A stretch of DNA of 64,000 bases from Pachysolen tannophilus NRRL Y-2460 (lineage: Eukaryota), in contig KV454012.1 in NCBI GenBank assembly GCA_001661245.1, positions 1,012,848-1,076,847 on the forward strand, read 5' to 3'. Of the stretch, positions 8,592 to 50,974 are shown one piece after another (position 1 is the stretch's first letter; every line of letters starts with the position of its first letter). The translations under genes were made by a program, and so were the position numbers. The notes beneath the pieces are model-generated. The model searched no databases, was not told the origin of the DNA, and was given only the letters and a program-made list of their open reading frames with translations.

Positions 8592-9446
8592 TTATTGTCT
8601 TGATTTAATAATATCAACAAATTCAGGTTTCAATGAAGCACCTCCAACTAAGAAACCATCAACATCTGCTTTATCTTTGAATTGAGAAACATTCTTACCA
8701 TTGGCTGAACCACCGTACAAGATTCTAACAGCATTGGCTTGATCTGCACCAATAGTAGTCTTTAAATATTCTCTGATTTGGTGTTGAATATCTTGTGCAT
8801 CTTCAGCAGTAGCAGCTAAACCAGTACCAATGGCCCAAACTGGTTCATAAGCGATAACAATATTACTCCAATCAGAAACAACATCACTAACAGCCTTTAA
8901 TTGTCTTTTACAAACATCTAAAGTAGTACCAGCTTTTTTCTCTTCTAAAGTTTCACCAATACAAAGAATAACTTTAACACCACTATCTAAGGCAAATTTA
9001 GTCTTTGATGCAATAAATTGATCAGTTTCTTTAAAAATAGTACGTCTTTCAGAATGACCTAAAATAACCCAAGGAACATTCAAATCTTTAAGTGATTCAA
9101 CTGAAATTTCACCTGTATAAGCACCAGACAGCTTATCAAATGCATTCTGAGCAGCAATTGATATAGTTTTCAGCTTAACATTTTCAACAGCCAATGATAA
9201 GTATGGTGCAGGTGGAGCAAGAACAACTTCAACATTTGATGGTAAATCGGCAGAATTTAAATTATCAATAATTGCCTTAATAGAAGCTTTGCTTCCATTC
9301 ATCTTGAAATTACCACCAACGAAAAAAGTACGATTTTGAGTCTGAAATCATGTTAGCATTTCATTAATACTCCTTTTTTTTGATTGATTTTTTTTTTTGG
9401 GGCCCAAATTATATGAACCATATATATAGATAGATATACTTACCAT
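8592..9446 (-). CDS. TPI1: Triosephosphate isomerase; exon 1 is the ATG only
   Basis: ATG 9446-9444, intron 9443-9342 (GTAAGT...TGCTAAC...CAG), then [21 protein letters not shown] and [10 protein letters not shown]. Confidence 0.97.
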
Positions 9447-9722
9447 TTTTTCTTTTCTTCTTCTTTTTTTAAATGCTTAATTTTAATATTCTTCTTATTA
9501 TATAAATTAAAATTTATACAAATTAATGAAAAAAACTTTTTAAATTAAATTAAATTATATAATTTCTTTATTATTTGGAAATCAATTTACTTTTAAACCC
9601 CTTCAATCATTAAAGTGGTCTTCTAGATTCCATCCATCAGATGGTGTGTTCGCTCTAACATTGCGGAATCGCTTTATTAATTTTTTTTTTCACCAGCTTG
9701 TGATTATTTGACCTTTGCTGTC

Positions 9723-9730
9723 ATCACGTG
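9723..9730 (+). promoter_or_regulatory. Cbf1/bHLH-type site upstream of TPI1
   Basis: ATCACGTG matches RTCACGTG, about 280 nt upstream of the TPI1 ATG. Confidence 0.4.
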
Positions 9731-9926
9731 AGACAAGATGGAATTTAAACCATTTTTACTATTACTTCAGACAACTTCCAACAACAACGACAACAATAAT
9801 TAAAGAAGAAGAGGTTAAAAGACAAAAAAAGGTAAGAAGTCAGCCTACTATATAATATAATCAATATGGTGTTGGGGAAGGATGTTTTTTAACTTTTTTT
9901 TTTTTTTTTTTTCTTTTTTGTATGTC

Positions 9927-10888
9927 TTAATGGTGCGATTTCTTAAACATTTCTCTTATTTGTTTCTCCTTTTCACGTTGTGATCTTATTGCTTCCTTTT
10001 CAGCATTTACAATTTCTAATATTTTTTTATCATCCAATTTTGCTTTATAAGTATTAAAATTGACTTCATCTGCAAATTCTTTTTCCACATCTTTTTGATT
10101 AATTTGATCATCTGGTAAATCATCCCATTTCCTTAATTTTGTTTGTAAATTATAATTTTCTTTATCTTTATTTTTTGCCATTACAATATATTGACAATGT
10201 GGTAAATTTCTTAAACTTTCAAATTCTTCAACTGACCAACGATACCATTTCATTAAAAAAACTCTCATCCAAATTCCATGTGTAATCAATACTAATACAG
10301 AGGGAAAATCATCATTTTTAAATTGTCTAAATAATGATTCATTAAATGAAGCAACTCTATCATAACAATCAGCTCCACTTTCACCATATGGAATTCTATA
10401 AAAAAAATGTCCATAATGAGCTCTTTCTTTCCATATTTTTTCCATTTCTAATGAAGAACCTTGAAAATTTCCAAAATCTTGTTCTCTCATTCTTGGTTCT
10501 TCTCTTATATGATATTTAATACCTAATTCTTCAAATTTACCACCTTCTATCACACCTTCTAAAGTTTGACGAGCTCGAAAATATGGTGAAGTATAAAAAA
10601 GTACAGTATCATCATCTTTTAATATCGTTGAAACTAACCTATTACCTGCCAGTAAAGCTTCCAGACAACCTTTTTTAGTTAATGAAATTTTATGATTTGG
10701 AGTATGACAATTAACAGATTTATCTCTATTACTCTCAGATTCACCATGTCTTAGCAATAATATCAACTAGAAAAAATAAAGAAAAGAAAAAAAATAATTT
10801 TTTTTTCAGTTTAGTTAGAAATCATAAATCAAAGGTTATCATTATAACTTTATCAAAAATGTTTTATACCTACCCTCGGTCTAGCCAT
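9927..10888 (-). CDS. DET1: Histidine phosphatase (phosphoglycerate mutase family), 2 exons
   Basis: Exon 1 (10888-10874) encodes MARPR. Intron 10873-10767 (GTAGGT...TTCTAAC...TAG). Exon 2 reads LILLLRHGESESN...REQDFGNFQ...GESGAD...THG. Confidence 0.9.
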
Positions 10889-11518
10889 TATTATTAGTAC
10901 CTCTTTTTTATTTTTTATTTTTTATTTTTTATTTTTTTATTTTTTTATTTCTTTCTTTTATTATTGATCTTATTTAATTTTAAGCTTAAAATGATCTAAA
11001 TTTCAAAATAAAAAAATAAAAAAATAAATGTACTATTCTACTTTGATCCACCTATATTTAATATTTATCAATTATTCTTAGTTAAGAAAAGATCTCGTTT
11101 CTACTTCTTTGCTATAATAATAATAGATAAAAAATGTCCATCAATGGGCAAAGCCGCTCCAACTGTGCACAACTAACTAAATCACCGTCTAAATCATTAC
11201 GTCAGCCACACCTTTTTGTGTCTCTCTTTTTTTTTTTTTTTTCTTCTTTTTTTTTTTTCGTAGTGCGTTGTTTCAATACAAAATTGATATTTCGCTCACG
11301 TCCATACATGGACAAATATACTTGGACATAAACCTCACCAGGGATCCTAACCTTTGAATTGATATATCTATATTATATATATTGACTAAACTAATTCATT
11401 CAATTGGAAAACAAAAATGGGACAAAGAAATTGTATAAATATATATATATATATATATATAACTAAATGAATAATAAAAACATAAAACTACTAAAAAAAA
11501 AAAAAAGAACCAAAGTGA

Positions 11519-13288
11519 TTAATTTTTTTCCTTTTCTTCACTCTTGACCAAGCTATCAGGTTTTAAAGTTGGGAATAATAAAACTTCTCTAATAGTATTT
11601 GAATTGGTCAAGAACATAGCTAATCTATCAATACCACAACCCCAACCAGCAGTTGGTGGTAATCCGTACTCTAAAGCGTTACAGAAGGTTTCATCGATCA
11701 ATTGGGCCTCATCATCACCTTGAGCTTTTTGTTTTGCTTGTTCTTCAAATCTTTGTCTTTGATCAAATGGATCATTTAATTCTGTATATGCGTTACAAAC
11801 TTCTTTTGTAGCAACAAAGACTTCGAATCTTTCACATAAACCTGGGATTTTTCTATCATATTTGGCTAATGGAGACATCATTTGAGGATGACCAAAGATA
11901 AAAGTTGGATTTATACACATATCTTCTAATTCTCCTACAAGTTTATCCAACATTCTAGCATTTGTTAAAGGAGGTGGACAATCCAATTTATGTTTGATTA
12001 AAATTGATTTCAAAAATTGACCAGTTTCAGCAGTATGTAATTGATCACCAGGTGGGAATTTTACATTAAAAACTTTTTCTAATTCTTCAATCATATTAAT
12101 TCTTTTCCATGGTCTAGTAAAATTTAAAATAAGTTCTTTACCATCAGGTCCATCTGGATGATATTTAATCTCATAAGAACCAGTAATTTCTTTAACCATT
12201 TCTGAAAATAAAACTTCAGTCATATCCATCAAATCATAAACATCTGCATAAGCTTGATAAAATTCACAAGTTGTAAATTCTGGATTATGTGTCATATCAA
12301 TACCTTCATTTCTAAATTGTCTACCAATTTCATATACTCTATCCATACCACCAACAACCAACTCTTTTAAGAACAATTCAGGTGCAACTCTCATAAACAT
12401 ATCCATATTTAAATCATTATGATGAGTAATAAATGGTTTTGCAGTGGCACCACCAGCAATAACATTCATCATTGGAGTTTCAACTTCAATAAAATCTCTT
12501 GTATCTAAAAATCTTCTAATATATGAAATAATCTTTGATCTTACAATAAAGCGATCTCTTGTAGAATTGTTTACAATCAAATCAAGATATCTTTTCCTAT
12601 AACGAGCTTCTTGATCTTTAAAACCATAATGTTCAGTTGGTAACATATGTAAACATGGAGTTAATAATTTGACTTCTCTAGCAAAGACAGAAACTTCACC
12701 TTCACCACCTTTATTTGGGTTAGTTCTACCAGGGTAACCTCTAACACCAATAATATCACCTCTTCTTAATAATTCATGCATTTTAGCATAATCACCATCA
12801 GCATCTTGAGCTTGTGCCATAACTTGAAGAATAACACCATCACCATGTAAAACATAAAATTTTAATTTTGAACCAGATTCTCTCTTGGTATGGATTCTTC
12901 CAGCAATGAAAACTTCAGTATCTTCTAAAGTTTCTCCTTTTTGTAAATAAGAATATTTTTTAGAAAATTGATCTAATCTAATTGAAACTGGAAATTTATG
13001 AGGATAAGGATTTGTTTCAGAATGAGGTTTTCTTAACTCATCAATTTGTCTTGATCTAATTTCAAAATACTGGTTTGGAGTTAAATCAGCTAAATCATCT
13101 TTCTTTTTAGAAACTTTTGGAGCAGTAGCTTGACTCTTAGAAGCCTTTTCAGCTTTTTTAGCTTCTTGAAGTCTCTGTTTTTGTCTTTTTTTCAATTCTG
13201 ATTTGGAAACATATTCCCCTGTTGGTTCATCCAAATATGTTTTTTGAACTTGTTCTGCAAGTTGATCAACCTGTGCGTCTTCTGGCAT
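11519..13288 (-). CDS. KRS1: Cytosolic lysyl-tRNA synthetase
   Basis: [12 protein letters not shown]-fold, [15 protein letters not shown] and [15 protein letters not shown] class II motifs. Confidence 0.98.
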
Positions 13289-13338
13289 TTTCCTTCACTA
13301 AAAATTTGATTTATTTAGTTTAAATAATTTTATCAATT

Positions 13339-13346
13339 TGAGTCAT
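13339..13346 (-). promoter_or_regulatory. Gcn4-type site upstream of KRS1
   Basis: ATGACTCA on the minus strand about 50 nt upstream of the KRS1 ATG. S. cerevisiae KRS1 is under general amino-acid control. Confidence 0.5.
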
Positions 13347-13612
13347 CGCTTTTTCTATTTTTCTATTTTTCTCTTTTTCTCTTTTTTTTTTTTTTGTCGT
13401 TCAACTTCTTTCTTCTTCAGTTTGGGGACGGTGAAAAAAAAAAAAAAAAAAAATTTTTTTTTTATAAAAAAATTATCTTCTCCAATTTTGAAAACTTTTA
13501 CTACCTAATCTTCTCCGTTAAGGAAACGAGTTACAAAAAAAAAAAAAAAAATTTTTAAAACTATTACATTATTTTTAGCGACACCGGAAAAATTTTAGGG
13601 TGACATCTGTTG

Positions 13613-13649
<37 letters not shown>

Positions 13650-13880
13650 ACAGGGGCTGCAGCCGGATTTAAAAAATAAAATTTTAAAAAAGAACAAACG
13701 GTCGTGCAGTTACAATTAGTAACGTACACGACAAACAAACAAAAAACGAAAAAATTACATAGACAGCAAAATGGGAAAAATTTTTCAAAAAAATCATATA
13801 TGGAGGACGGGTAGGATATCAATAGTCATTTCAAATATAATATCACGAAGAAGAAGAAGAAGATAATAGTAATAACAATA

Positions 13881-15043
13881 ATGTCAAAAGTGTAAGTATA
13901 TAAGATTGTAAGATAGTTTGGATTGATTGATTTTAAGACTGGTTTACTAATAAATATTTTATAAATTATGATTTCATAATTTTTGATTTTTTTTTTTTTC
14001 TCTTATTTAGAAATATTGAATTAGAAGCAAGTGTTGCATTAAAAATTGTGAAAAATTCTTCTGATCATTACCCACATTCAGTTAGTGGTCCATTATTTGG
14101 TATTGATTTAGAAGAAGATTCCAATACCAAGAAGGTAGTGATCTCTCATGTTTTTTCATTTCCAAATAATAATAGTAATAGTAATGATCACCATCATCAA
14201 GAAGGTTATTCATTTAAATTAAAATCTAATTTAAGATTTCAAAATGAAGTATTGGATCTGTTTAAAGAAACTGGATTAGGTGTTAAGTTTGTTGGTTTGT
14301 ATTTGTCAAGTATTGGAGGTAGATATTTAACTCAACAAGTTGTTGATTCAATGATGCAACAACAAGCTTTAAAAAATGAAAATGATGATAATTCTAAAGT
14401 TTTATTATTGGTTCATGATCCTTCAAAGACTAAAAATGGTGTATTATCATTAAGAATTTTTAAATTGAGTGAAGTTTTTGTGAAAACTTGTCGTAATGGT
14501 AAAAAATTTCAAACAACAAATTTGATTGAAAATGGATTAACTTTTAAAAATGTTTTAGAAGAATTACCATTAACAATTCATAATTCACATTTAGTTAATT
14601 TAAAAATATTATCATCAAGTGATGAATCAAAAGGAGAAGAAAATTTTGAATCTTTAAAATTATCAAGTACTATACCAACTGTAGAAACAACAATAGAAAG
14701 TTTATTTGATTCTATTGATGATTTCAATTATGATCAAAATAATTTCAATTATTATCAACGTTCTTTATCTAGAGAATTAGCCAAGATTAATCAATGGAAA
14801 CAAAAGAGAAAGTTGGAAAATTTAAATAAATTAAAGCAAAACCCAAATACACCAGAATCAGAATTATTATCATTGGATGAATCAGAATGGTCAAAACATT
14901 TCAAATTACCTTCTGAACCTTCAAGGTATGAGAATTTGATCATTAGTGGGCTATTAAACAATTTCTGTAATGAATTAGAAGTCAGCAGTGCTAACGAGTT
15001 GATAAAGAGTTTTAGTGTTGCTAAAGGATTAGATATCAATTAA
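13881..15043 (+). CDS. eIF3 subunit h (MPN domain), 2 exons
   Basis: Exon 1 (13881-13891), intron 13892-14010 (GTAAGT...TACTAAT...TAG). Spliced protein MSKVNIELEASVALKIVK...GPLFGID...VHDPSKT..G.LSLR...ELPLTIHNSHLV...YYQRSLSRE...FKLPSEPSR. Confidence 0.88.
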
Positions 15044-15143
15044 TAATAATAATAATCTAAATTTATTATATATATATATATATATATAGCTACAAATTTT
15101 TTTAAATAAAAAAAAAAAAAAAACACATTTGAATAAAAGCTAT

Positions 15144-16085
15144 TTATTTTTTTCTTACTGCCAATTGCATATTTCCTCTTCTTTTCATTTCTAAAGCAGT
15201 TTTGTAAGGAGGAGCAGTAGGCATTTGTACTGGATCCAAACTTAATCTTTCTAAATTTTTATCTAATGTATAAGTTGCATCTGAATCATAACTTGATAAA
15301 TCACCACAAGCAATAAATGGAGCAATTATTCTTTCTTCCAAGGGAAATGATAAATCATTTTTATTTAATTGTGCTCGCCCTATTCCACTATTTTGGAAAA
15401 ATTCTTCTGTTGATTTATCTAATTCTAAAGTTGGTTTCCAACCAAGTCTTGGTTTATATCCAATACAAACTATAAAACTTTCTAAAGAAGTTCCTCTAGA
15501 AGATCTAGGTTTTGCACATACAACTTTTTCAAATAAAAACCCCAACTGACTATACATCAAATCTATATCTCTTCCTCTAAAAATTTTAGCAACAAATGTA
15601 CCACCTTCTTTTAATATACAACATGTTAATTGTAAAGCACTTAAAATTAATTGTGCTTGTATATACTCATCAAGATCATGTAACCCTGTCACATCAGGTG
15701 CACCATCCGAACATACAAAATCTGCTTTTTCACCTCCAAATACTGACAATATCTTATTCATAGTACGTGGATGAGTAATATCAGCTTGTATAGTTGTAAC
15801 ACCTTCAATAGGAGACATTGGTTGTAAATCTACAGCAACAAGTTTTGGTTCAATATAACTTTCCAACTTAGTATCTTCCAACTTTGCCTTTTGATATATT
15901 TCCCTCGATAATACCTGGGACCATGAACCTGGAGCAGCACATAAATCAACAACTCTTCTAACACCTTTAAACAATTGAAATTGCTCATTTAATTGTAATA
16001 ACTTAAACGCTGACCTTGCTCTCCATCCTTCCTCTTTGGCCTTCCTGTAATACAAGTCTCTCTTATCTTTACTACTCTTACCCAT
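15144..16085 (-). CDS. TRM7: tRNA 2'-O-methyltransferase (FtsJ family)
   Basis: True start [29 protein letters not shown] at 16085. [11 protein letters not shown] and [11 protein letters not shown] motifs. Confidence 0.96.
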
Positions 16086-16675
16086 ATCCAAACCTTCAAA
16101 ACCTTCTATTAACACAAACACAAACACAAACACACACACTCTCTTTCTCTTTATCTCCACAAAACAAAACTTGTACTCTAACAATCAATCAATCACTATA
16201 GTACTACTATACCTTTAATATATACTTTTTAAAAAATTTTTTAGCTCTAAGATTATAGGTCGTTCATTTTTCACCCAAAAATTCCGAATTCGGAAATAAA
16301 AAAATAAAAAAAATAAAAAAATAAAATAAAAAACGGTGTCTGTCTGCCATTTTGTTTTCCTAATCACTATTTACGTGTCATTACCAACAGTAGTGTACTG
16401 AAAACACAAAATCCCCCTTTTTTTTTAATCTGTCATTTCAATTTCCATTTTCGATCCTCAAATTTTCTTTACGTGTCAAAAACAAAAGGTAGTGTTTGTT
16501 AACACAATATCTGCCAATTTTTTTGGTTTTTACCGGAATCTATTACGTGTCAATTGTTTTCTCTGTTTTTTTTTTTTTTTTTTTTTTTTTTCACATTTTT
16601 TTTCACTGGGTCAACAAAAGCGTGCGAAAGCTCTCTTTGCGGTGGAAAACTAAGTTATATTAATTATATTAATTA

Positions 16676-16711
<36 letters not shown>

Positions 16712-16751
16712 ATAAAGTGGTTAGTGGTGAAGTGAATTTTCATTTGGAGAT

Positions 16752-17774
16752 ATGTTGGGACGCTCAGTGATGTTTCAAGTGCGTGGTTTGCCGGTGATGT
16801 CGATGAATTCGACTAGATCGAAGAGGATTAGTTTAAATTTAAATTCTTGTTGGTTTTCATCTAGTTCATTGTGTTTAAATAATACCAATATTGAAAAAGA
16901 GAAAAAACATAAAAATGATTTGGCCAATAATCTTACAGCGAGACTTTTAAAGAATGATGGTTATAATCCGATGCAATTATCTGATGAAAAAATAGTTTCT
17001 GATATTAATAAACCTCTTACAATAAATGTAGAACTGAATTATTATGCTCCATTAAAAAATGAAGTTAAATATGGAGATTTAAAATGTGAAGTTACTATGA
17101 GAGCTTTTGATAGTAGAAATTTGGAATTTTTTAGTGATTTTGCTTTAAGAGCTGGTTATTATCTTGGTTTAGCAATAACAGGTCCAAAACCATTACCTGT
17201 TAGAAGAGAAAGATGGACAGTTATAAGATCACCTTTTGTACATGCAAAATCAAAGGAAAATTTCGAAAGAAGAACACATGCTAGGCTTTTAAGAGTTTGG
17301 GATTCAAATCCTGAAACTATTGATTTATGGTTACAATATTTGAATAAACATTCAGTAAGAGGAGTTGGTTTAAAACTGCATATGTATGTTCAAGAAGAAA
17401 TTGATTATTCTAAAAAAATGGATTCATTCGATGCAATTCAAGATGAAAATATAAATTCTCCAAATATAAGTCATTTCTCAAATACTTCAAATCCAATGGT
17501 AGCTGATAGAGTCAAAGAATTGTTAAATGAACCACATTTTAAAAGACATTTTAATAAAGACCCAGTTGAAAATGGAAATGAAAATACACAAAAAACAATG
17601 GAAGAAAAAATTGAACCGGTAGTTGAAGATAAAAAAGTTGAAACTAAACAAGAAGCAAAATCAGTACTGGAACCCCTGGAAAAGGTGAAGGATAACCAAG
17701 AGCATCAAGATGCTAAAGATGCCAAAGATGCTAAACATTCTAAAGATGCTAAAGACCCTACAAATGATAACTAA
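16752..17774 (+). CDS. RSM10: Mitochondrial ribosomal protein uS10m
   Basis: [31 protein letters not shown]10 motif and an Arg/Ser-rich presequence. Confidence 0.95.
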
Positions 17775-22710: not shown

Positions 22711-23793
22711 TTATACTTTTGAGCGAATAGACCTATTTTTTTTCCTTTCATTTTTCGTTAAATGAGTCCTGTAATGTTGCATGCAATTGTCATGTCTTGA
22801 AAACCTCGCGCCACATCCATTTTGAGGACAAACATGGTTCCTTTCACCTGTATGAATTCTGATATGTCTTGCTAAATGACCTGATGTAGTGAAAACTTTA
22901 GAACAAGTTTGACACTGATACTTACGAATCATCCCTGTTTGCTCTCTCTTTGGTGAAAACCTCTTTGTAGAACTTGGTGCTTGAACTTGTGCTTGTGCTG
23001 GTGCTTGTACCTGGGCTTGTGCTTGTGGTGCTGGTGCTGGTACAGATACTGCGACTGGAACTGGGACTGGTACTGGCATTGGTGCCAGTACCAGTAGTGA
23101 AGAGGGCAGACTGAATGATATACGTGGACTTATAGTGGTCGTTTTAATGATAGTGGGGCCAGTTGTTCCAGCAGTTGGCATTAAATGCAGAGGACCACGA
23201 TCAGGGATAGAGGCAGCAACTGGTGAAGAAACAAAATTTGAGTTGGAATGAGAATTGGAATTGGAGTGAGAATGAGAATGGGAGTTGGAACGTGTAGTTT
23301 CACGAGGGGTGGAGTAAATGAAAGATGGTTGTGATGAAGATCTCGAAAGTGGGATACTCTGATTTTCTAATGGTTGATGATGATACATAACTGGTTGATT
23401 TCTTACAAACGATCCGTATGTTGGACTTATTCCTTCCACGGGTTCCAAAATGACTGTTGGAATTAATGCTGGTAATTTATTTGTATCATTTGAATTAAAA
23501 GTATTTGATACCACTGGTTGATGACATCTTTGGACTTGTCCCGGCTCCTTGAAGTGTACTTCTTCGAGAAGAGATCTCAAAGGTGGTAACGACTGATGAT
23601 GATGCTCGTGTTGTTGCTGGTGCTGCTGCTGGTATGGGTACTGCTGCTGTTGGTGGTGTTGTTGTTGTTGTTGGTACTGCTGCTGGTATTGTTGCTGTGG
23701 GAAACGTTGTGGTGCACAATAATGTTCGTTATTGAGGTATTTATTATCAATATGGCTGAAATGGCCATAACCCGGACTTATATTCGTAGCCAT
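22711..23793 (-). CDS. NRG1: C2H2 zinc-finger repressor, Nrg1/Nrg2
   Basis: RKYQCQTCSKVFTTSGHLARHIRIHTGERNHVCP..GC..RFSRHDNCMQHYRTH, plus a Gln-rich N-terminus with LPPLRSL. Confidence 0.9.
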   Translation of the reverse strand: MATNISPGYGHFSHIDNKYLNNEHYCAPQRFPQQQYQQQYQQQQQHHQQQQYPYQQQHQQQHEHHHQSLPPLRSLLEEVHFKEPGQVQRCHQPVVSNTFNSNDTNKLPALIPTVILEPVEGISPTYGSFVRNQPVMYHHQPLENQSIPLSRSSSQPSFIYSTPRETTRSNSHSHSHSNSNSHSNSNFVSSPVAASIPDRGPLHLMPTAGTTGPTIIKTTTISPRISFSLPSSLLVLAPMPVPVPVPVAVSVPAPAPQAQAQVQAPAQAQVQAPSSTKRFSPKREQTGMIRKYQCQTCSKVFTTSGHLARHIRIHTGERNHVCPQNGCGARFSRHDNCMQHYRTHLTKNERKKNRSIRSKV

Positions 23794-25284: not shown

Positions 25285-26634
25285 TTAATTTGAGGGTAGT
25301 TTTTCATCTATTGTTAATATAGCTCTTCTTTTCCAACGTCTTGTTCTAGTATATTTTGTTATACTATCTTCTGGACTTGGATATTTCCAATAATTATCGT
25401 AATATAACCAACCATCACCTACTTTAGTTCTACTAAAATTTCGATCAACCATCCAATTTGGTTGTAACCATTTCCAAGTATAAATAATGGTTGATGGATC
25501 TGGACTTTGAGGAAATTCAAAAGTAGTTGGAGATTTACATGATATTAAATTTTCACTTGTAAAATTTGCACGATCATAAGGAAATAAATATGTTGACCAA
25601 CCAATTCCAATCCATCTTCTTTGATTTTCTAAAATTTCAAATTCAACTATTTTTGAATTTTTTTCAATAGAAATTATTTTAAAATCCAATTTTTTTTCAA
25701 AATTATTTATATCTTGTGATTTTTTTGATTGTAAATCATAATGATTTTGTTGTGAAGTATAAAGATTAATATCTAATCCTGATAATAAACAAATAATTTT
25801 TCTAGTATAAATACTTCTCCATAAAAGACTTCTTGTAGCAATAGCCCAATCTGAATGGAAAGTTAAACAAAAAACTGTTATTAATATAACCATACTTTTA
25901 AGGCTTATCAGATAATATAAGAGTAACCAATATAATGGTGTTAAAAGTAAAATCAAAAAAATTACTCTTATTAAATCCAGTTTTGTATAATTTTTCAAAA
26001 AATGTGCTGATGATACCAAGATTTCAAATCTAGTAGATATATTTGATAAAGTGTACAAGATTTCCTCAATTGTGGGCACATCATCATAATCATTATTATT
26101 ATTATTATTATTGTTATTTTGAAAATCCTGATCTTCTGAATCCTCTAAATCCGAACTCTCTTGTTTTTCCTCTTTTAAAACCTGTACCAAGTCATCGCTA
26201 TCCTCATCATCATTATCATCATCAGTTTCATTTCCAGTTTCAATTCCACTGCTTGGTAATCGATAATCATAATTTTTACTTTTAGTTTCAATTAATATCG
26301 ATTGTACTGACCAAGTAATACAAGAAAATATGAAAACAATTAATAATGGTAATAAATAAATACTGAAAAATTCCCATTTAACAATAACTAATACAATTGC
26401 TGTCATACATAAAAAATTATAATATGGATCATCATTTGTCCAAGTAATAAAAGATAAAATATTATCCAAGACAAGTAAGTATGGGAAACTATGACTCAAA
26501 GTTGTTGTAATTATAGGAGATGTACTAGATAATAATGGCATTTTTGAATTTAAATCGTTAATGTATGTAGGTGTAAATTTTGCTCTATGTGTATGTCTGG
26601 TATCAATGGCTATTTGTGAGCCACTTTTGGACAT
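25285..26634 (-). CDS. PEX32: Pex23-family peroxin with a dysferlin domain (Pex32-like)
   Basis: Hydrophobic hairpins (FPYLLVLDNILSFITWTNDD), ENQRRWIGIGW, GWLYYDNYW and TRTRRWKRR. Subfamily assignment is tentative. Confidence 0.7.
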   Translation of the reverse strand: MSKSGSQIAIDTRHTHRAKFTPTYINDLNSKMPLLSSTSPIITTTLSHSFPYLLVLDNILSFITWTNDDPYYNFLCMTAIVLVIVKWEFFSIYLLPLLIVFIFSCITWSVQSILIETKSKNYDYRLPSSGIETGNETDDDNDDEDSDDLVQVLKEEKQESSDLEDSEDQDFQNNNNNNNNNDYDDVPTIEEILYTLSNISTRFEILVSSAHFLKNYTKLDLIRVIFLILLLTPLYWLLLYYLISLKSMVILITVFCLTFHSDWAIATRSLLWRSIYTRKIICLLSGLDINLYTSQQNHYDLQSKKSQDINNFEKKLDFKIISIEKNSKIVEFEILENQRRWIGIGWSTYLFPYDRANFTSENLISCKSPTTFEFPQSPDPSTIIYTWKWLQPNWMVDRNFSRTKVGDGWLYYDNYWKYPSPEDSITKYTRTRRWKRRAILTIDEKLPSN

Positions 26635-27016: not shown

Positions 27017-27495
27017 ATGTCTTCAAATGAGGATCAATCACAACAGATACAGCTGCAACAACAACAACAACCGTCTGATGCTCTGAAAACAGATGATACA
27101 AAAGTTTTCAAGACTTTAGAAGAAGACGATGAATTTGAAGATTTCCCAGCAGAAGGTATGTTTTATCTTTTTTTTTATATATAAAAAATACTACTATTAT
27201 TAATACTAGATTTACTAACAAACAATAATTTGGGAATCAATTTTTTTTTTTTGGATTTAGATTGGAAAGATGATCAAACAATAGGCGCTGAAAAACGAGA
27301 CCATTTATGGGATGAAAGTTGGGATGATAACGATAACGATGATGACTTTACCCAAAGATTGAAGTAAGTATTACTTCAAGTAATATATATATATATAGTT
27401 ATACAAAAAAAATTACAATTTACTAACAAATACCTCTAATTTTTCTTTTTCTTTTGCTTTTATATAGAGATGAGTTGAAAAAACATGCTAAATAG
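27017..27495 (+). CDS. SEM1: Sem1/DSS1 proteasome lid subunit, 3 exons (absent from ORF track)
   Basis: Exons 27017-27155, 27261-27363 and 27468-27495. Introns GTATGT and GTAAGT...TACTAAC...TAG. 89 aa with LEEDDEFEDFPAEDW...LWDESWDD...DDFTQRLKDEL. Confidence 0.95.
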
Positions 27496-27828: not shown

Positions 27829-30800
27829 ATGTCGAGTGATAGCCGTAGTATGAAGAGTATTAGTGATGGAAAGATAAATACTCGAAAAAGGTCATTACAT
27901 TCTCCATCAACAAATCGGTATAATAATCATGATGGTGATGGCGGGAATCATAATGAGAGTTTGTTGTTTTCTTCAGTGTCAACACCAAAATTGAATAAGT
28001 CTAATGGTAATGGTGGGTTTTCAATTCCATGGAATTTTGCTCTGACGCTGTCACTGAAACTGTCGCTGAAACTGTCGCTGAAACTGACGCTGAAACTGAC
28101 GCTGAAACTGACTGTGAAACTGACAGTGGCGCGTTCTACATTGGCGCTGGGACAAGTTGGTCAACTGAGTTTGATGCCACTGCCTTCAGCTTCAATTAGA
28201 AATAATACAAAGAAGAAAGTGGCGTTGACAAGAAGTGCAGGGTTATTAAACTTGTCAATAGAAAATGAAAATGAAACAAATAGTGGTGGTAATGATAGTA
28301 ATAATAATAAGGATGATGACGATGACGATGACGAGGATGAGGATGAGGATAATGATAACGACTTTAATGCAAATGGCGTTACAAAATCTTTCAATGACTT
28401 GAATTTTGATTCAGAAGATATGATGATTGTGGAAAACCTGTCAGAGATAAAGGAAAATATTGAAAATATTGAAAATGTACCTTATACAAATAGATTAAAA
28501 AGATCATTAACAAGTTCATCTTCTTCTTCATCATCACCTCAAACTGCACCAATCTCATCATCTTCACCTTTTGTTAATCATAATCATAATCATCTTGGAA
28601 TTGTTGAAAAACAAACATCAATGGAAAGTCCTTTCAGCAATTTTACACAACCTTTACATTTTTTACAACAAAAAATAAAAAAATTAATGGAGATTTAATA
28701 CCTCCTCCACCTCCAACATCAAATAGTAAAACTTCTTCATCACCAAATGACTCACCTTCAAAACCAGCAAGACAAAAACCAAAATATGATTCCTCATCAA
28801 GTTCAATTGTTGCATCACATATTTTTAAATCAAATAATCCACAATATAGTAGTAGTACTCCATTAACAGATTCTACTAAAAGAAATAATTTTATAACTCC
28901 AAATTCTTTTAAATCTGTTAAACCATTACAAACTGCATTCATGTCATCAGGATTATTAAGTAAGAAAACAGCTAGTGTCAACTCTTCTTCTTCATCTTTA
29001 ATGCCGGAAACTCCATGTAAAAGACCGTCACACATGTTAGTGGATCCAAATGGTTCATTTGCACATCATTCAAGTGGTGTTGGTGCAAGTGGTGGTACAA
29101 ATGGTACTGGTAACCTATCCAGTTTAGCAACTTCAGTAATTAATGCTCAAGATTCATCACCTGCTACAACTCAATATCATACACCAAGTGAAAGTAATAC
29201 ACCAACAAGTACAAATAATATTGGAAGTGGTAATTCTAGTAGGCATAATAGAACTGGAAGTGGTAAATTTAGTATTTCAAGCAGTGGAAGGAAAACTTCT
29301 AAAAGTGATAGAACTGTTAATACTTCAGATTTACAAAGTTGTATATTAAGATTTACCAACGAATTTGATGATTTTTACGATTATGAAAGTGGGAATAGAA
29401 ATCCACAAAGCTCAGATGTCACTAACAGAGGAAGTATATTTGAAGAAGTATCTAAAGATTTTGATATTAAGGATTTGGATGTTGATTATGGTATGGATAT
29501 TCCTGCAACCCCAACAAAATTAGGTATTACTACGGGAAATTCACAAGATTCTCCTTCTAGAAGATTAATTAGCTCCAGAAAATATCAAGGAGATAACCAT
29601 AATACTGAGGACAATAATAATAATAATAATAATGAAAATAATAATAATAAGTTACCTTTGTCAATGAAAAAAGTAACTATTTCACATATAGTAACAGATA
29701 TTAAAAACTTGCAATCCAATATGAATTTTAGACGTCCACAATCTTCAATAACTCCAAAGACACCCAGTGAACCTCAGTTTACAACGACTACTAGTTCTGC
29801 TGGTTCTACAACAAATATTTATGATAATTCGTTATTTTCCGCGGCAAGCTACAATTCCACAATGGATACTTCATATCAATTTCAACAACCTACTCCACAT
29901 CACAAACATGTTCCATCTTCTAATCCATCGTTAGTAGATGAACACTTAACTGCAAAATTTAAAAATGTACAATTAATTGGTTCTGGTGAATTTTCATTAG
30001 TTTTTTCAATGGAGTTTGAAGAAGTTAAATATGCAGTAAAAAGAACAAAACATCCATTATCAGGTCCAAAGACAAGATTGAGGAAATTAGAAGAAGTTGA
30101 AATTTTGAAAAAATTACAAGAAAATGAAATTAATGATTTTGAAGGGCATGAATATATTTTAAATTTCATCAATTGTTGGGAATTTAATTCAAATTTGTAT
30201 ATAATAACAGAATTTTGTGAAAATGGTTCATTAGATAAATTTTTAATTGAAAATGGGAAAATTTCAAAATTAGATGAATGGAGAGTTTGGAAAATTTTAA
30301 TAGAAATTTTAATTGGTTTAAAATTTATACATAGCAATGACATATTACATCTTGATTTAAAACCTGCTAATATTTTTATAACTTTTGAAGGTTCATTAAA
30401 AATTGGTGATTTTGGATTAGCAACAAAATTACCTATTCCACAATTTTTTGAAAGAGAAGGTGATAGAGAATACATTGCACCTGAAATCATATCGCATCAG
30501 CAATATGATAAACCAGCAGATATATTCAGTGTTGGGTTAATAATGGTTGAAATTGCAGCCAACATTATATTACCAGATAATGGACTGTCATGGCAAAAAT
30601 TACGAAGCGGAGATTTATCAGATGCAGGTAAATTAAGTTCGAGTGATTTAACAAATTATACTACAGGTACATCGTCATCTTTATTTAATCAAAATAGTTG
30701 TACTACAAGTGATCCATCTTCGTATTCATCATATTCTGATCCACTGGATCATTTTAAAAATACAAATAATAATTTGTTATCTGTTAAACCCAATAAGAAT

Positions 30801-42819: not shown

Positions 42820-42923
42820 GAAAGAGATAAGATTTCAATATGGAGCTTTATAAATTTTTTAAACAATAAATAAATAATTTCTAATCAAAAATTCTTCTTC
42901 ATCAATATTTTTTCTTTTTTTTT

Positions 42924-45531: not shown

Positions 45532-48450
45532 TCAATTTGAGATCTTCTCTCTTAATTGACCCAAAAATTCTTTAAAGCTTGATGTGGATTGAACCCTATC
45601 TTCAACCAAATCATTTAATGCCCAGATTCTTAAGGCCAATAATTCTCTAAATGATGGATCGTTTTGATAAGATGAACTTTCATGAGAAGATTGACCTCTT
45701 ATAACGTATAAATTTTTAAATACAATTGTATCTTTACCTTCTCTAATTTTGTTTACAATATTTCTAACCCTCATATTAAATTCGGATTCTAAAACTGGTA
45801 ATTCTCTTTTACCAATTGGAATTTCAGATACATCATTAAGACCAAATAAATCATTGACCAATTGTGGTACTGCATCACCACCAACCCATAAAAATAATTC
45901 TGAAGAATTATTTATCAAATATAAACCATACTTTGCTAACCATTCTGAAGCAGCATTTATTGGTTCAGGTAAAACAATTTCACCAGTTGATATAGCTAAA
46001 GGTTGTTCTTCTTCTTGTTGTTGTTGTTCTTCATCTACTTCAGCAACCTCTGGTAAACCACATTCATCAGCCATATCATGTAATGAATAAACAGTTGGAT
46101 AGATGTATTGAACTAATTGAGGTAAAGGTATAGAACCCAACAAATTTAAAGCATTGGCTCTATGATCACTTGGTACTCTCCCTGTTCTTAATGCAATATG
46201 TTTTGTTAAAGCATGTAATAATAATGGTAACATTCTTAAATTGGTACAAAGTTGTAAAGGTGATGAAGATCCAATATTTCCTCCAACTAATTCCTTTTTA
46301 AAAGTAGCCAAGATTTCAACCATACTTTTAGTCAAGAAATCTCTAGCATCATTTAAAGATGATGAAAATGTTTTCTCAATTGCTCTATGGGTAAAATAAT
46401 TGGCAATTGCAAGTTGATCTGCACTAGCATATATATCTTTTAATTCTTTAGAAACAGGTAAAGCAACAGTAATTACTCTAATTCTTCTTTCACCAAACAG
46501 AGTAGTATGTAAAACAGCTGCTTGGATACACGCTACTGGTCTTATCATATTCTCATCAATTGCTACTTCAATAACATATGATTGATCTCTTGGGAAAGTT
46601 GGGAAAGAACATAAATCAGAAGATCTATTGAAAAAATTACCATAAAAAGATGACATTCTTAATCCTGAAGAACCTCTAACTCTTAAAACTGCTTCTAATT
46701 CTATATCCATAGATAAATGATTTGAAATTTCTTTTGAAAGTTTTGTAACATCTTCCAATTTTGTTGCAGTCCAAGCAGGATAAAAATGTGTTTGACCCGC
46801 TGTATAACGTGGTAAATTGCTTAACGTAGCAACATCTTGATAAGTTGATGCAGCTAAAAACATATCAATTGTAACTTGTGATTTATTACAATCAATTGCA
46901 AATGATTTATAAAAAGAATCATTTGGAGTTAATAATGCACTAGCTTCTTTTGGTTTTCCAAAGAAACTTTCTTCATCTCTTATAGATAATTTTCCAACAC
47001 CTTCAGATGGTAAAGATGAACTAAATACAATAACTTTACCTCCAATTGATTGAATTAAATGACGAGATGCTTTTAAAGCTGGTCCCAAGGCAAAACCTTC
47101 ACTTGTAGTATTTATGAAAAAATTTGCAAAATTATTTAACAATTTTTCAATATTATTATGGCAAAGTTTTAAATCCACAAGTAAATTATCAGGTGAAGGA
47201 ATAAATACATCTTCCAAATCGGAAATAACCAACATTGAAGCATCTTTATCTGTTTCATCTGCAGGAATATTGAAAAAATATAAACTAGAATCAACACCCA
47301 TAAATGCTACTTTTGTTCTACCATCTTTATTTGGAATACGATCAAGTGTTTCTAAAATTGTTCTAGTGACAGTACCTAATAATCCATTTTGCATAGATTT
47401 AATGCTAACATCCAAGACAAAAACATAAATTAATGGTTGTGGAGTTCTAACTAAATAAGCTGGAGGAGCAATAAATTCAACAACAGAATGATTTAATTCT
47501 GGTCTTTCCATTCTATTTTTTTCCACTTTTGTAGTTTGATCATAATCAAATGCACTTGGAACATCATTTTGTAAATTACAAAAATTACATCTCCATCTTC
47601 TTCCATTTTCTGTGAATTGAATAAACTTATTAATATAAGCTCTACAACGACGACATCTTGAAATTATACAATCATCAGAAACTGCAACTTTTTCATCTTC
47701 ATCTCTTAAAGCATTATATGGTCTTAATACCAAGGCAAATGGTAATTTTGATTTTTTCAACAACGAACCATTATTTGGAATAACGTTTAATGTAGACCTT
47801 AAATATTCATAAGGAGCATTTGCTTCAGAATTCGGATTTACAGTTGTACCTGGCGGAATAACAATTGGAGGTGGTGGTAATACCAATTCTTGAATAGGAG
47901 GTGGCAAATCTCTCAACAAATCAGTTTGATATAATTGATTCAAAGGAAGAGCTGGAGTTCCATTTGGTGAAACAAGATTTGAAGCTCCAAAAGATTGTTG
48001 AGGAACTTGTTGTTGTCCATAAGCACCACCACCATAAGCTGGTTGAATTGGAACATTTTGATATGGTACTTGAGGTTGTTGTACATAACTTGGATGAGTT
48101 TGTTGACCATATGCTGGTACTGCATTCCCCATAGCACCAACACCAGAGTTCTGAGCACCATTAAGATTCAAACTATTCATTCCTTGTGCTAAAACTGATG
48201 CATCATCAGTACCATATTGACCTGCTCCATATGGCGGTTGAGCCGGAATAAATTGTTGTGGTTGACCCCCACTAGGCAACAGCTGTTGCTGTAATTGCAG
48301 CAGCTGTTGCTGCTGCTGCGGTACACCAACTCCTGGCACACCAACCCCTGGTGCAACACCATAAGGCAATTGTGAAGAAACACCCAATGGTTGATCTGCA
48401 GCAACTTGATATTGCGCCGATGGGTACGCTCTTCTACTCTTATGTGACAT
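45532..48450 (-). CDS. SEC24: COPII cargo adaptor
   Basis: RRAYP start, [10 protein letters not shown]...WRCNFC zinc finger, vWA trunk, [14 protein letters not shown] and LVEDR. Confidence 0.96.
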
Positions 48451-48784: not shown

Positions 48785-50974
48785 CTAACCGTATATAATG
48801 CCAATTGCGTCTAGCCATTGGCCTAGTCTGCCGTAGAGGCCTATGATGGATGAGCCTGAAGGTGGGTGTAACTGTCCCATGCTTCCACCACTTGTATTTC
48901 CGAGCATGTCGCTTGTTCTACCTGTGTTTAAGACAATTTGAATTGCATCGACCCAACCACCAGATCTTATATTGAAAGAAGCGATGTATTCGTTGTCGTG
49001 TAGTTCAAAGTCTGTATAGTGGTGTTTAGCGTTACCTAGCTTAACAATTTTAGAAGGCTTGGAGTTTGGAGTGTTTGAACTAGTGTTTGATTTTGTATTT
49101 TGTAATTTTAAAATATTGGAGATCTTGGTCTTGTAATCTCTTGGAGGAATTGGAGGAGGCAGATCCAGTTCCCCAATTTTTTCTGAAAATTCATGGTTTT
49201 CCTCAACTTGAGTAAGGAAAAATTCTAAACCATCTAATGCGGCACCATGGTGGATTCTAACTTTTGTCACTTTATATCCAGCAATGATAGCCAATGGAGT
49301 TTCATTACTTCTATCAGTAGCACCAAAAACACAAGATTTGAAACCACGAATTATGGAACCATTATCTAGAGTTATTGGAATAGAAGAACCTTGTTGCTTG
49401 ATGAAATTGGATAAATCATCAATATCTAATTGACCACCACCATTTGCCAAGACACTAACTTTTAATTTCTTATTTCTATAATTTTCAGGTAATAAATTTT
49501 GAAATTCTTCATAACTTAAAATTGCTTCTGTTACAGGACCTGGTCCTCTAAGACAACGTGGTAAATACTCGATATGTGCTCTTGACCAATCTTCAACGTG
49601 TAATTCTATAAGAAATACACCAGATAATGATTCAAGCATTACTGCATTAGTTGAAGTTGGATATACAGATGGCTTTAACGCTAATCTTTTCCTTTGCAGT
49701 AAATCTTGTATCATTTTGGGCTTGAATGATAAATCTAAAAAATCTGGTGGTAAGGCAAATGAATCATGGTATAAAAACCTAATGATATCTAATCGATGCC
49801 ATGTACATTCATCTTTAGGTAAAATAGGAGACCATTCACCTTTACCAGTTCTAATACATTTTCTTTCTTTAGTTAAAAAAGTTCTATTAAAAGTAACATA
49901 ATCTCTCATCATTACACCATTTATTTGATGAGGACATCCAAGTAAATGACCAATTTCATGCATAAAAGCACCTAATGTAACATTAAGACATTCCCAACTT
50001 GAAGAACATTCATTACAATCATTTGCAACTTCTTTTCTACTAGGTTCCGTAGTATCAGTGAAACATTTAGTCAATTCTTCAAAATTTGCAGGCCAAGACC
50101 ATACTCCATGAGATCCAAATATTGCTAGTTTAATATCATCATCACCTCCACCTAATGCTGCATGGGTCAAAATTAAATTTGAATTCGGATCCCAATGAGT
50201 ATCTAAAAATAATACAGCAGCTTGAGCAGCTCTACCACTAGTCGCAGCTCCTGAAAACGGTCCTCCATATTTTTTTAAAGCATTCATGGCAATCCCAAAT
50301 AAGCCACCTGTATTACTACCGTTTGGATTTTGTTGTGCTAAATTCGGATCACGTAGCTCTTTTAACGTCAATTCAGATTTCAAAATATGAATCTTAATAT
50401 CACTTCTAACTACTTTCAGTTGCTCTTCTATTTTACTAATTGTAGATTTCATAGATTCTTCCTCAAATCTAAAACATCTTTGACCAAACCCATTTGTAAA
50501 CATTTGTTGTTGAGTAAACAGTTGCATTAACCTTCCTCCCATTCTTAACTTCTTAATTGCCAAATCCAAAGAATTGCCCTCTTCTTTAATTTTAAAAGAA
50601 GGTGAATCAAATTGCAAAGGTGAATCTTTCGCAACCAAAATACATAAATGAACTGGAGGATTGTTTAATAAAGGAACATAATTAATATCTAATAAAACCG
50701 ATTCTCCAGAATAAGATGACTTCTCAACTGATGGAACACCATCTATAAACTTCCCTTTACAAACTTCAACACCTAAAGAATTTTCTCCTGGATTGACATG
50801 AATTAATGCCTTAAAATACCCATCATTGACTTCATAATATTGTGGTGGAAATGACTGTTGGTTCTGATGATATACTCTAACAAGACCAGATTTTGTCTTC
50901 TCACATTTCCCAAACAAAATATAAACTGGTACATGAATATCAGCTAATGGCCTATTATATAATGTAATCGTCAT
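48785..50974 (-). CDS. Putative zinc metallopeptidase with a C-terminal jacalin-like domain (YIL108W-like)
   Basis: HAALGGG, FGSHG and MHEIGHLLGCPH (HEXXH) motifs. C-terminal RSGGWVDAIQ and GLYG...W.DAIG. Confidence 0.88.
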   Translation of the reverse strand: MTITLYNRPLADIHVPVYILFGKCEKTKSGLVRVYHQNQQSFPPQYYEVNDGYFKALIHVNPGENSLGVEVCKGKFIDGVPSVEKSSYSGESVLLDINYVPLLNNPPVHLCILVAKDSPLQFDSPSFKIKEEGNSLDLAIKKLRMGGRLMQLFTQQQMFTNGFGQRCFRFEEESMKSTISKIEEQLKVVRSDIKIHILKSELTLKELRDPNLAQQNPNGSNTGGLFGIAMNALKKYGGPFSGAATSGRAAQAAVLFLDTHWDPNSNLILTHAALGGGDDDIKLAIFGSHGVWSWPANFEELTKCFTDTTEPSRKEVANDCNECSSSWECLNVTLGAFMHEIGHLLGCPHQINGVMMRDYVTFNRTFLTKERKCIRTGKGEWSPILPKDECTWHRLDIIRFLYHDSFALPPDFLDLSFKPKMIQDLLQRKRLALKPSVYPTSTNAVMLESLSGVFLIELHVEDWSRAHIEYLPRCLRGPGPVTEAILSYEEFQNLLPENYRNKKLKVSVLANGGGQLDIDDLSNFIKQQGSSIPITLDNGSIIRGFKSCVFGATDRSNETPLAIIAGYKVTKVRIHHGAALDGLEFFLTQVEENHEFSEKIGELDLPPPIPPRDYKTKISNILKLQNTKSNTSSNTPNSKPSKIVKLGNAKHHYTDFELHDNEYIASFNIRSGGWVDAIQIVLNTGRTSDMLGNTSGGSMGQLHPPSGSSIIGLYGRLGQWLDAIGIIYG

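What the first reader, a model, noticed from the sequence alone, without database searches (positions are those of the whole stretch)
9129..17378. Non-standard genetic code: CUG appears to encode alanine
Seen: in-frame CTG codons at RSM10 17034 (NVE-x-NYYAPLK) and 17376 (GVGLK-x-HMY), TPI1 9131-9129 (FDK-x-SGA) and DET1 10664/10652 (GC-x-EAL-x-AG). Recalled orthologues have Ala at several of these positions: S. cerevisiae Rsm10 NVEAVYYAPLK, Tpi1 KASGA, fungal Rsm10 GVGMKAN. Elsewhere CTG sits in Ala/Pro/Gln low-complexity tracts (NRG1, SEC24, SEM1). Established: CUG-Ala occurs in the Pachysolen/Nakazawaea/Peterozyma clade. Inference: this genome uses that code and the ORF track is wrong at every CTG.
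Basis: partly seen in the sequence, partly recalled or inferred. Interest (0 to 1): 0.8.

Follow-up and report, generated by a model that had tools for sequence, protein, structure and literature searches.

The report
Known CUG-to-alanine code of Pachysolen

Summary
All five cited CTG codons are in frame at the stated coordinates. The recalled orthologue residues are confirmed for S. cerevisiae Tpi1 and Rsm10 and for Neurospora uS10m.

A 99%-identical database protein is named Pachysolen tannophilus NRRL Y-2460. NCBI table 26 is that species' nuclear code, CTG=Ala. Public copies of four window proteins differ from the standard translation at 13 of 13 CTG codons, always with Ala.

An independent column test used 7 alignable CTG sites. 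Ala scored +3.4 nats, Leu -4.2 and Ser -10.2. None of 20,000 resamples of true Leu or Ser codon sites reached the observed margins.

- RSM10 aa95 is Leu or Met in the nearest relatives.
- Both DET1 sites lie in variable columns.
- One PEX24 site sits in an I/L/V/F column.
- The strongest site is metallopeptidase aa152, with Ala in 106 of 119 orthologues.

The decoding tRNA is not in the window and could not be examined. Published proteomics found Ala at 97.2% of 907 CUG positions (PMC4937558).

The parts
17034..17036 (+). CTG codon, RSM10 (uS10m) aa95
   Evidence: In frame. Orthologue column: Ala 56, Leu 54, Met 6, Ile 3 of 119. The nearest relatives with the same ...NYYAPLK context have Leu or Met, and Ala occurs in the VEAVY group. 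The public copy has Ala.
17376..17378 (+). CTG codon, RSM10 aa209
   Evidence: Orthologue column: Cys 56, Val 38, Ala 25, Leu 0 of 119. Four of the five closest relatives have Ala. The public copy has Ala.
17667..17678 (+). Two CTG codons, RSM10 aa306 and aa309, in a lineage-specific C-terminal tail
   Evidence: The columns are gaps in 117 of 119 orthologues, so they are uninformative. The public copy has Ala at both.
9129..9131 (-). CTG codon, TPI1 aa73 of the 251-aa open frame
   Evidence: Aligned to Ala of S. cerevisiae TIM (K-A-SGAFTGE) in the PDB alignments. All five alignments shown are variants of one yeast protein.
9171..9173 (-). CTG codon, TPI1 aa59
   Evidence: Aligned to Lys of S. 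cerevisiae TIM, at a surface-variable position.
10650..10664 (-). Two CTG codons, DET1-like histidine phosphatase aa35 (10664-10662) and aa39 (10652-10650)
   Evidence: Both columns are variable. At aa35: Glu 25, Gln 20, gap 15, Ala 5, Leu 4 of 119. At aa39: Gln 21, Glu 19, gap 15, Leu 12, Ala 11 of 119. The public record PACTADRAFT_48750 has Ala at both.
50519..50521 (-). CTG codon, PF12044 metallopeptidase aa152. This is the most informative site in the window.
   Evidence: Orthologue column: Ala 106, Ser 8, Thr 2, Met 1, Leu 1, Gly 1 of 119. It is flanked by near-invariant Met, Gln, Phe/Tyr and Thr. The public copy has Ala.
25909..25911 (-). CTG codon, PEX24-family peroxin aa242. This is a counter-example.
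   Evidence: Orthologue column: Ile 28, Leu 22, Val 13, Phe 9, Ala 0 of 79, in a predicted membrane stretch. The alignment is gappy and only 30-40% identical. The public copy has Ala.
25978..25980 (-). CTG codon, PEX24-family peroxin aa219
   Evidence: Variable column: Pro 21, Gln 11, Arg 8, Ser 6, Ala 4, Leu 0 of 79.
46498..46500 (-). CTG codon, SEC24 aa651
   Evidence: Aligned to Asn in S. cerevisiae Sec24 and Ser in human SEC24B. The table-26 translation of the whole ORF is an exact database entry and the table-1 translation is not.
48280..48303 (-). Three CTG codons (SEC24 aa50, 51, 57) in a CAG-rich Gln tract
   Evidence: The local codons read CAG CAG CAG CAA CAG CTG CTG CAA TTA CAG CAA CAG CTG.
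30585..30587 (+). CTG codon, Wee1/Swe1-type kinase aa660 of the extended frame
   Evidence: Aligned to Glu of human Myt1 (LPHGGEGWQQLRQG).
23088..23192 (-).
   Evidence: The region is not alignable and was not tested against orthologues.
27053..27085 (+). Two CTG codons in SEM1 exon 1 (aa13 and aa23)
   Evidence: contexts SQQIQ[CTG]QQQQQ and QPSDA[CTG]KTDDT.

Best explanation
The window is nuclear DNA of Pachysolen tannophilus NRRL Y-2460. In this yeast CUG is decoded as alanine (NCBI table 26). According to the published work, an alanine tRNA acquired the anticodon CAG. Alanyl-tRNA synthetase recognises the acceptor stem (G3:U70, A73) and not the anticodon, so this tRNA is still charged with Ala and inserts Ala at CUG. 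The ancestral Leu-tRNA(CAG) is absent. Every in-frame CTG in the window therefore encodes Ala, and a standard-code translation is wrong at each one. Three points are shown here: the organism's identity, the agreement of public protein records with Ala at CTG, and a preference for Ala over Leu and Ser at alignable CTG columns. The tRNA mechanism and the peptide evidence are taken from the literature and were not tested here.
For: 1. Identity. The DET1-like query hits 'PACTADRAFT_48750 [Pachysolen tannophilus NRRL Y-2460]' at 99% identity. The only differences are L to A at the two CTG codons. The own-copy hits of the other queries lie on a contig of the same length, 2,193,613 bp.

2. Public copies have Ala at 13 of 13 CTG codons: metallopeptidase 5 of 5, RSM10 4 of 4, DET1 2 of 2, PEX24 2 of 2. 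In the exact look-up, 3 of 8 table-26 translations are database entries (SEC24, 41313-42437(-), 20197-21162(-)). Neither of the 2 table-1 translations is.

3. Independent column test on four orthologue alignments. Of 13 CTG sites, 6 were dropped for weighted gaps of 0.3 or more and 7 were kept. Summed log-odds are Ala +3.44, Leu -4.15, Met -5.19 and Ser -10.16. The same scoring returns the standard residue for 53 of 59 codons. The other five misses have 1 to 4 sites each, so CTG is the only codon with more than 4 sites that departs.

4. Resampling 7 sites 20,000 times. True Leu codons give Ala-minus-Leu of -17.0 +/- 4.7, and 0 samples reach the observed +7.59. For true Ser codons, 0 samples reach the observed Ala-minus-Ser of +13.60. 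Ala stays ahead of Leu when any single site is left out (+3.05 to +10.62) and for pseudocount weights from 0.05 to 0.3.

5. Conserved columns. In 39 columns with orthologue Leu of 0.8 or more, the window uses CTG 0 times. In 21 columns with Ala of 0.8 or more, it uses CTG once.

6. The five sites with PDB alignments only align to Ala, Lys, Asn/Ser, Glu and a gap, never to Leu.

7. Literature. PMC4937558 (abstract and Results section read) reports 907 fully supported CUG positions, 97.2% read as Ala, and a tRNA(CAG) with G3:U70 and A73 and no extended variable loop. PMC5951914 (passages) and PMC11182611 (passages) define the Ala clade, order Alaninales. The taxonomy lookup lists Pachysolen under Alaninales.
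Against: - The Ala in the public records reflects the annotators' choice of table 26. It is not independent biological evidence.
- Only 7 CTG sites were alignable. Most of the margin comes from two of them: metallopeptidase aa152 (+4.34) and RSM10 aa209 (+4.53).
- Two sites point the other way. PEX24 aa242 is Ile/Leu/Val/Phe with 0 Ala of 79. RSM10 aa95 is Leu or Met in all the closest relatives shown.
- Against genuine GCN Ala codons, the observed Ala-minus-Leu score lies in the lowest 1% (0.0096 of 20,000; expected +21.0 +/- 5.3). CTG sites are therefore much less Ala-conserved than ordinary Ala codons.
- No tRNA gene lies in the window and no genome is held. The decoding tRNA and the absence of a Leu-tRNA(CAG) were not examined here.
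- In the exact look-up, 5 of 8 table-26 translations were not found. Differing gene models are the presumed reason, which was not checked.
- The amino-acid background frequencies in the scoring were my own approximate values, not computed from data.
Confidence: 0.97

Rival explanations
1. The code is standard. CTG is an ordinary but rare Leu codon in a very AT-rich genome (28.6% G+C), and the Ala matches are coincidence.
For: CTG rarity alone is expected at this base composition. Two CTG sites sit in hydrophobic or Leu-rich columns: RSM10 aa95 with Leu 54 of 119, and PEX24 aa242 with Leu 22 and Ile 28 of 79.
Against: None of 20,000 resamples of 7 real Leu-codon sites reach the observed Ala-minus-Leu score, and only 0.035% exceed zero. 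CTG is used in 0 of 39 strongly Leu-conserved columns. Metallopeptidase aa152 is Ala in 106 and Leu in 1 of 119 orthologues. The organism is the one in which proteomics showed Ala at CUG.
Confidence: 0.01
2. CUG is read as serine, as in the Candida (Ser1) or Ascoidea/Saccharomycopsis (Ser2) clades.
For: The reassignment to Ser is the commoner one among budding yeasts (PMC5951914 abstract). SEC24 aa651 aligns to Ser in human SEC24B. Ser is the second residue at metallopeptidase aa152, in 8 of 119 orthologues.
Against: The summed score for Ser is -10.2 against +3.4 for Ala. None of 20,000 resamples of 7 real Ser-codon sites reach the observed Ala-minus-Ser margin. Mean orthologue Ser frequency at CTG sites is 0.02, against 0.29 at real Ser codons. 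The organism belongs to the Ala clade.
Confidence: 0.005
3. Decoding is ambiguous: CUG is read as Ala and, at a substantial rate, as Leu, as described for Ascoidea asiatica with Ser and Leu. The CTGs at hydrophobic columns would then still be served by Leu.
For: CTG sites score between typical Leu and typical Ala codons. Two of seven alignable sites are hydrophobic columns. Stochastic CUG decoding exists in another yeast (PMC6041473, abstract in the search listing only).
Against: Published spectra give Ala at 97.2% of 907 positions, with deviations no more frequent than at AUG (PMC4937558 Results). The intermediate score is equally explained by CTG codons sitting at poorly conserved positions.
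Confidence: 0.015

Closest known systems
NCBI genetic code table 26, the Pachysolen tannophilus nuclear code (CUG=Ala); order Alaninales (Pachysolen, Nakazawaea, Peterozyma)
   Same: It is the same organism, shown by the named 99% hit. CTG is read as Ala in the public records at 13 of 13 sites. The window's alignable CTG columns prefer Ala.
   Different: Nothing differs. This is the described case itself. The tRNA and the peptides were not re-examined here.
CUG=Ser in the Candida/Debaryomyces clade (NCBI table 12, Ser1 clade, order Serinales)
   Same: The same codon is reassigned in a related lineage of class Pichiomycetes. In both cases a non-Leu tRNA carrying anticodon CAG captured the codon (PMC4937558).
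   Different: The residue is Ser, not Ala. The window's CTG columns reject Ser. The Candida tRNA is partly mischarged with Leu, whereas the Pachysolen tRNA is reported as unambiguous.
CUG=Ser with residual Leu in Ascoidea and Saccharomycopsis (Ser2 clade)
   Same: It is a third, independent reassignment of CUG in budding yeasts (PMC5951914 abstract).
   Different: The residue is different and, in A. asiatica, decoding is stochastic. No evidence for dual decoding was found or testable here.

Membership tests
CUG-Ala yeasts (NCBI table 26, Alaninales) | In-frame CTG codons align with Ala, not Leu or Ser, at conserved orthologue columns | tested here: met
   On 7 alignable sites the scores are Ala +3.4, Leu -4.2 and Ser -10.2 nats. 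None of 20,000 Leu or Ser resamples reach the observed margins. The best single site has Ala in 106 of 119 orthologues. Support is moderate: 2 of the 7 sites are hydrophobic columns.
CUG-Ala yeasts (NCBI table 26, Alaninales) | The organism belongs to the Pachysolen/Nakazawaea/Peterozyma lineage | tested here: met
   The 99% hit is named Pachysolen tannophilus NRRL Y-2460 and differs only at CTG codons. The lineage is confirmed by the taxonomy lookup.
CUG-Ala yeasts (NCBI table 26, Alaninales) | A tRNA with anticodon CAG carries Ala identity elements (G3:U70, A73, short variable loop) | not testable with these tools
   ARAGORN finds 0 tRNA genes in the window and no whole genome is held. The feature is reported for this species in PMC4937558.
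CUG-Ala yeasts (NCBI table 26, Alaninales) | No Leu-type tRNA(CAG) is present in the genome | not testable with these tools
   No genome is held.
CUG-Ala yeasts (NCBI table 26, Alaninales) | Peptides carry Ala at CUG-encoded positions | not testable with these tools
   This rests on the literature only: 97.2% of 907 fully supported positions (PMC4937558 Results).
CUG-Ser yeasts (NCBI table 12) | In-frame CTG codons align with Ser or small polar columns | tested here: not met
   Ser scores -10.2 nats. Mean orthologue Ser frequency at CTG sites is 0.02, against 0.29 at real Ser codons.
Standard code (CUG=Leu) | CTG is used at conserved Leu columns like the other Leu codons | tested here: not met
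   CTG is used in 0 of 39 columns with orthologue Leu of 0.8 or more. Mean orthologue Leu frequency is 0.16 at CTG sites, against 0.48 at the other Leu codons.

The most novel reading that the evidence does not exclude
The CTG codons here are not a random sample of Ala positions. They score far below ordinary GCN codons for Ala conservation (lowest 1%). They tend to sit where relatives carry residues one base change away from CTG. Examples are Leu/Met at RSM10 aa95, Ile/Leu/Val at PEX24 aa242, Pro/Gln/Arg at PEX24 aa219, Gln at the DET1 sites, and CAG-rich Gln tracts in SEC24 and SEM1.

The boldest reading is that some CTGs at hydrophobic columns are survivors of the ancestral Leu-CUG set. They would have been carried through the reassignment as tolerated Leu-to-Ala replacements. 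The codon would then never have been fully purged, which bears on the dispute between tRNA-loss and ambiguous-intermediate models. The more modest reading is recent TTG, CAG or CCG to CTG point mutations at tolerant sites.
Probability: 0.1. Interest if true: 0.4.

Novelty: already known. Interest (0 to 1): 0.1.

Why it matters
It has no bearing on new biology. The CUG-Ala code of Pachysolen tannophilus has been in print since 2016, has its own NCBI table (26), and is a diagnostic character of the order Alaninales.

It does matter in practice for this scan. Every standard-code or table-11 translation of this genome is wrong at each CTG, which is about 0.35% of codons in 24 ORFs of this window. 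Protein-level searches and folds of windows from this genome should use table 26.

It also shows that a reader can recover the reassignment from 64 kb of raw sequence. However, only about half of the CTG sites examined in the four alignments were alignable, and only two of the seven alignable sites carry most of the signal.

Tried and rejected
- Whole-genome access for a tRNA(CAG) search: no genome is held. ARAGORN finds no tRNA in the window.
- Earlier notes of this scan on this genome: none exist.
- DET1 sites as evidence: both columns are variable and uninformative.
- RSM10 aa95 as clean Ala evidence: rejected. The column is split, Ala 56 and Leu 54 of 119, and the nearest relatives have Leu or Met.
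- Six of 13 CTG sites in the four aligned proteins fall in gappy, lineage-specific columns and were dropped from scoring. They are metallopeptidase aa186, 426, 603 and 605, and RSM10 aa306 and 309.
- PDB alignments mostly returned redundant copies of one yeast protein. They added one residue per site for TPI1, SEC24 and the kinase, and a gap for the dual-specificity phosphatase aa288.
- Exact look-up of table-26 translations failed for 5 of 8 ORFs. Differing public gene models are the likely cause, which I did not check.
- ORF 27829-28695(+) holds 17 of the 58 in-frame CTGs listed. It has no Pfam match and is not in the protein collection under either code, so I excluded it from all codon statistics as a doubtful gene.

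Full report
**What is in the sequence**

The window is 64,000 bases with 28.6% G+C. It has three N runs: 4314, 42924-43774 and 54665-54982. It carries typical budding-yeast genes, recognised by Pfam:
- triosephosphate isomerase
- a DET1-like histidine phosphatase
- lysyl-tRNA synthetase
- an FtsJ/Trm7 methyltransferase
- mitochondrial uS10 (RSM10)
- ALG14
- a PEX24-family peroxin
- a Wee1-type kinase
- SEC24
- a PF12044 metallopeptidase
- 6-phosphofructo-2-kinase
- glycogen synthase
- others

In the 27 ORF pieces I listed there are 58 in-frame CTGs. Of these, 17 lie in one doubtful low-complexity ORF. In 24 better-supported ORFs CTG is 38 of 10,993 codons.

PDB alignments confirm the recalled residues.
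- S. cerevisiae TIM has Ala opposite TPI1 aa73 and Lys opposite the second TPI1 CTG, aa59.
- S. cerevisiae uS10m has Ala opposite RSM10 aa95 and Cys opposite aa209.
- Neurospora uS10m has Ala at both RSM10 sites.

**Whose genome this is**

The DET1-like query returned a 99% hit named 'PACTADRAFT_48750 [Pachysolen tannophilus NRRL Y-2460]'. Its only differences from my standard-code translation are Leu to Ala at the two CTG codons.

The window's own copies of three other proteins show the same pattern, and at least the first two lie on a contig of the same length (2,193,613 bp):
- metallopeptidase: the five differences are exactly the five CTGs, all Ala
- RSM10: four of four
- PEX24-family protein: two of two, plus one D/N difference next to a gap in the public gene model

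In an exact look-up, the table-26 translations of SEC24, ORF 41313-42437(-) and ORF 20197-21162(-) are database entries. The table-1 translation of SEC24 is not. Five other table-26 translations and one further table-1 translation were not found. Differing gene models are the presumed reason.

Table 26 is labelled 'Pachysolen tannophilus nuclei: CTG=A' by the translate tool. The taxonomy lookup places the species in the order Alaninales.

The public records show how annotators read the genome. They are not independent evidence of decoding.

**Independent test on the window**

I aligned four window proteins with their database relatives, leaving out the window's own copies.
- Metallopeptidase: 119 sequences, from the best 120 listed of 1,350 hits.
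- RSM10: 119 sequences, from the best 120 listed of 162 hits.
- DET1: 119 sequences, from the best 120 listed of 1,124 hits.
- PEX24: 79 sequences, from the first 80 of 150 listed representatives.

Results at the informative CTG sites:

| Site | Orthologue column |
|---|---|
| Metallopeptidase aa152 | Ala 106, Ser 8, Thr 2, Met 1, Leu 1, Gly 1, between near-invariant neighbours |
| RSM10 aa209 | Cys 56, Val 38, Ala 25, Leu 0 |
| RSM10 aa95 | Ala 56, Leu 54, Met 6, Ile 3 |
| DET1 aa35 and aa39 | variable, mostly Glu/Gln |
| PEX24 aa219 | variable: Pro 21, Gln 11, Arg 8 |
| PEX24 aa242 | Ile 28, Leu 22, Val 13, Phe 9, Ala 0 |

At RSM10 aa95 the alignment rows show a split. All the closest relatives, which share the query's ...NYYAPLK context, have Leu or Met. 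Ala belongs to the VEAVY group that includes Saccharomyces.

Six further CTG sites fall in gappy, lineage-specific columns and were dropped.

**Scoring**

I used position-weighted column frequencies with a 10% background pseudocount. The background values are my own approximations. I summed log-odds per candidate residue over the 7 alignable CTG sites. The results were Ala +3.44, Leu -4.15, Met -5.19 and Ser -10.16.

The same procedure returns the standard residue for 53 of 59 codons. The five other misses have 1 to 4 sites each.

Resampling 7 sites 20,000 times gave the following:
- Real Leu codons give Ala-minus-Leu of -17.0 +/- 4.7. None reach the observed +7.59.
- For real Ser codons, none reach the observed Ala-minus-Ser of +13.60.
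- Real Ala codons give +21.0 +/- 5.3. The observed value lies at their lowest 1%.

CTG is thus clearly not a Leu or Ser codon here. However, CTG sites are much less Ala-conserved than ordinary GCN codons.

Ala stays ahead of Leu when any one site is removed and across pseudocount weights from 0.05 to 0.3. In 39 strongly Leu-conserved columns the window never uses CTG. In 21 strongly Ala-conserved columns it uses CTG once.

Sites with PDB alignments only add Ala and Lys (TPI1), Asn/Ser (SEC24 aa651), Glu (kinase aa660) and a gap (phosphatase aa288). None aligns to Leu.

**Mechanism**

The mechanism comes from the literature and was not tested here. Muhlhausen et al. 2016 (PMC4937558; abstract and Results section read) report the following:
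- The Pachysolen tRNA(CAG) is an anticodon-mutated Ala tRNA with G3:U70 and A73.
- It has no extended variable loop.
- LC-MS/MS on strain NRRL Y-2460 covered 907 fully supported CUG positions, and 97.2% read as Ala.
- Deviations were no more frequent than at AUG.

Krassowski et al. 2018 (PMC5951914; passages read) extend the Ala clade to Nakazawaea and Peterozyma. Groenewald et al. 2023 (PMC11182611; passages read) make CUG-Ala a diagnostic character of Alaninales.

The window holds no tRNA gene and no genome is available. I could not look at the tRNA myself.

**Verdict**

The practical consequence is that windows from this genome should be translated with table 26.

One mildly interesting residue remains. 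CTG sites sit mostly at poorly conserved columns, or at columns whose usual residues are one base change from CTG. These are Leu/Met, Ile/Leu/Val, Pro/Gln/Arg and CAG-rich Gln tracts. This fits new CTGs arising by point mutation at tolerant sites. It leaves a small chance that some are survivors of the ancestral Leu-CUG set.

Noticed in passing
window 27829-28695 (+), repeat core 28042-28122: An ORF of 289 codons holds 17 in-frame CTGs. Thirteen of them lie in a 12-base tandem pattern (CTG AAA CTG WCG). This reads LKLS/LKLT under the standard code and AKAS/AKAT under table 26. The ORF has no Pfam match and is not in the protein collection under either code. Its last 90 bases overlap the open upstream frame of the Wee1-type kinase (open from 28608) next to an A-run. 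A frameshift, a single longer gene or a spurious ORF are all possible.
   Followed up: partly
window 9303-9347 (-) and 10766-10800 (-): TPI1 and the DET1-like gene both lack an in-frame ATG at the start of their conserved open frames. The TPI1 frame opens with ...[11 protein letters not shown]. The public DET1 protein begins MARPR and then joins LILLLRHGE, and MARPR is seen in another frame just upstream. Both genes therefore seem to have a very short first exon followed by a 5' intron.
   Followed up: partly
window 27017-27500 (+): A SEM1/DSS1-like small acidic gene appears to be split by two introns. The signals are GTATGT at 27156 with TACTAAC at 27213, and GTAAGT at 27364 with TACTAAC at 27421.
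   Followed up: no
window 48280-48320 (-): The SEC24 N-terminal Gln tract uses CAG for 6 of 9 Gln codons. Across 24 ORFs CAG is 64 of 435 Gln codons. The three CTGs of the tract sit among these CAGs, which is compatible with CAG-to-CTG point changes.
   Followed up: partly
window 25288-26634 (-) and 16752-17771 (+): The public gene models differ from the longest ORFs. The PEX24-family protein is 357 aa in the database against a 449-codon ORF and is matched in two stretches. RSM10 starts at the second ATG, giving 334 aa against 340.
   Followed up: no
window 42924-43774 and 54665-54982: N runs of 851 and 318 bases are present, either masked or assembly gaps. The first interrupts ORFs called at 42859-43915(-). 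The second lies just upstream of the glycogen synthase gene.
   Followed up: no
P0242 and P0243: Two unnamed assembled proteins are 69-70% identical to the DET1-like protein. That is much closer than any named relative (61% or less), so they may come from other members of the Ala clade. They carry Gln and Leu at the two CTG columns.
   Followed up: no
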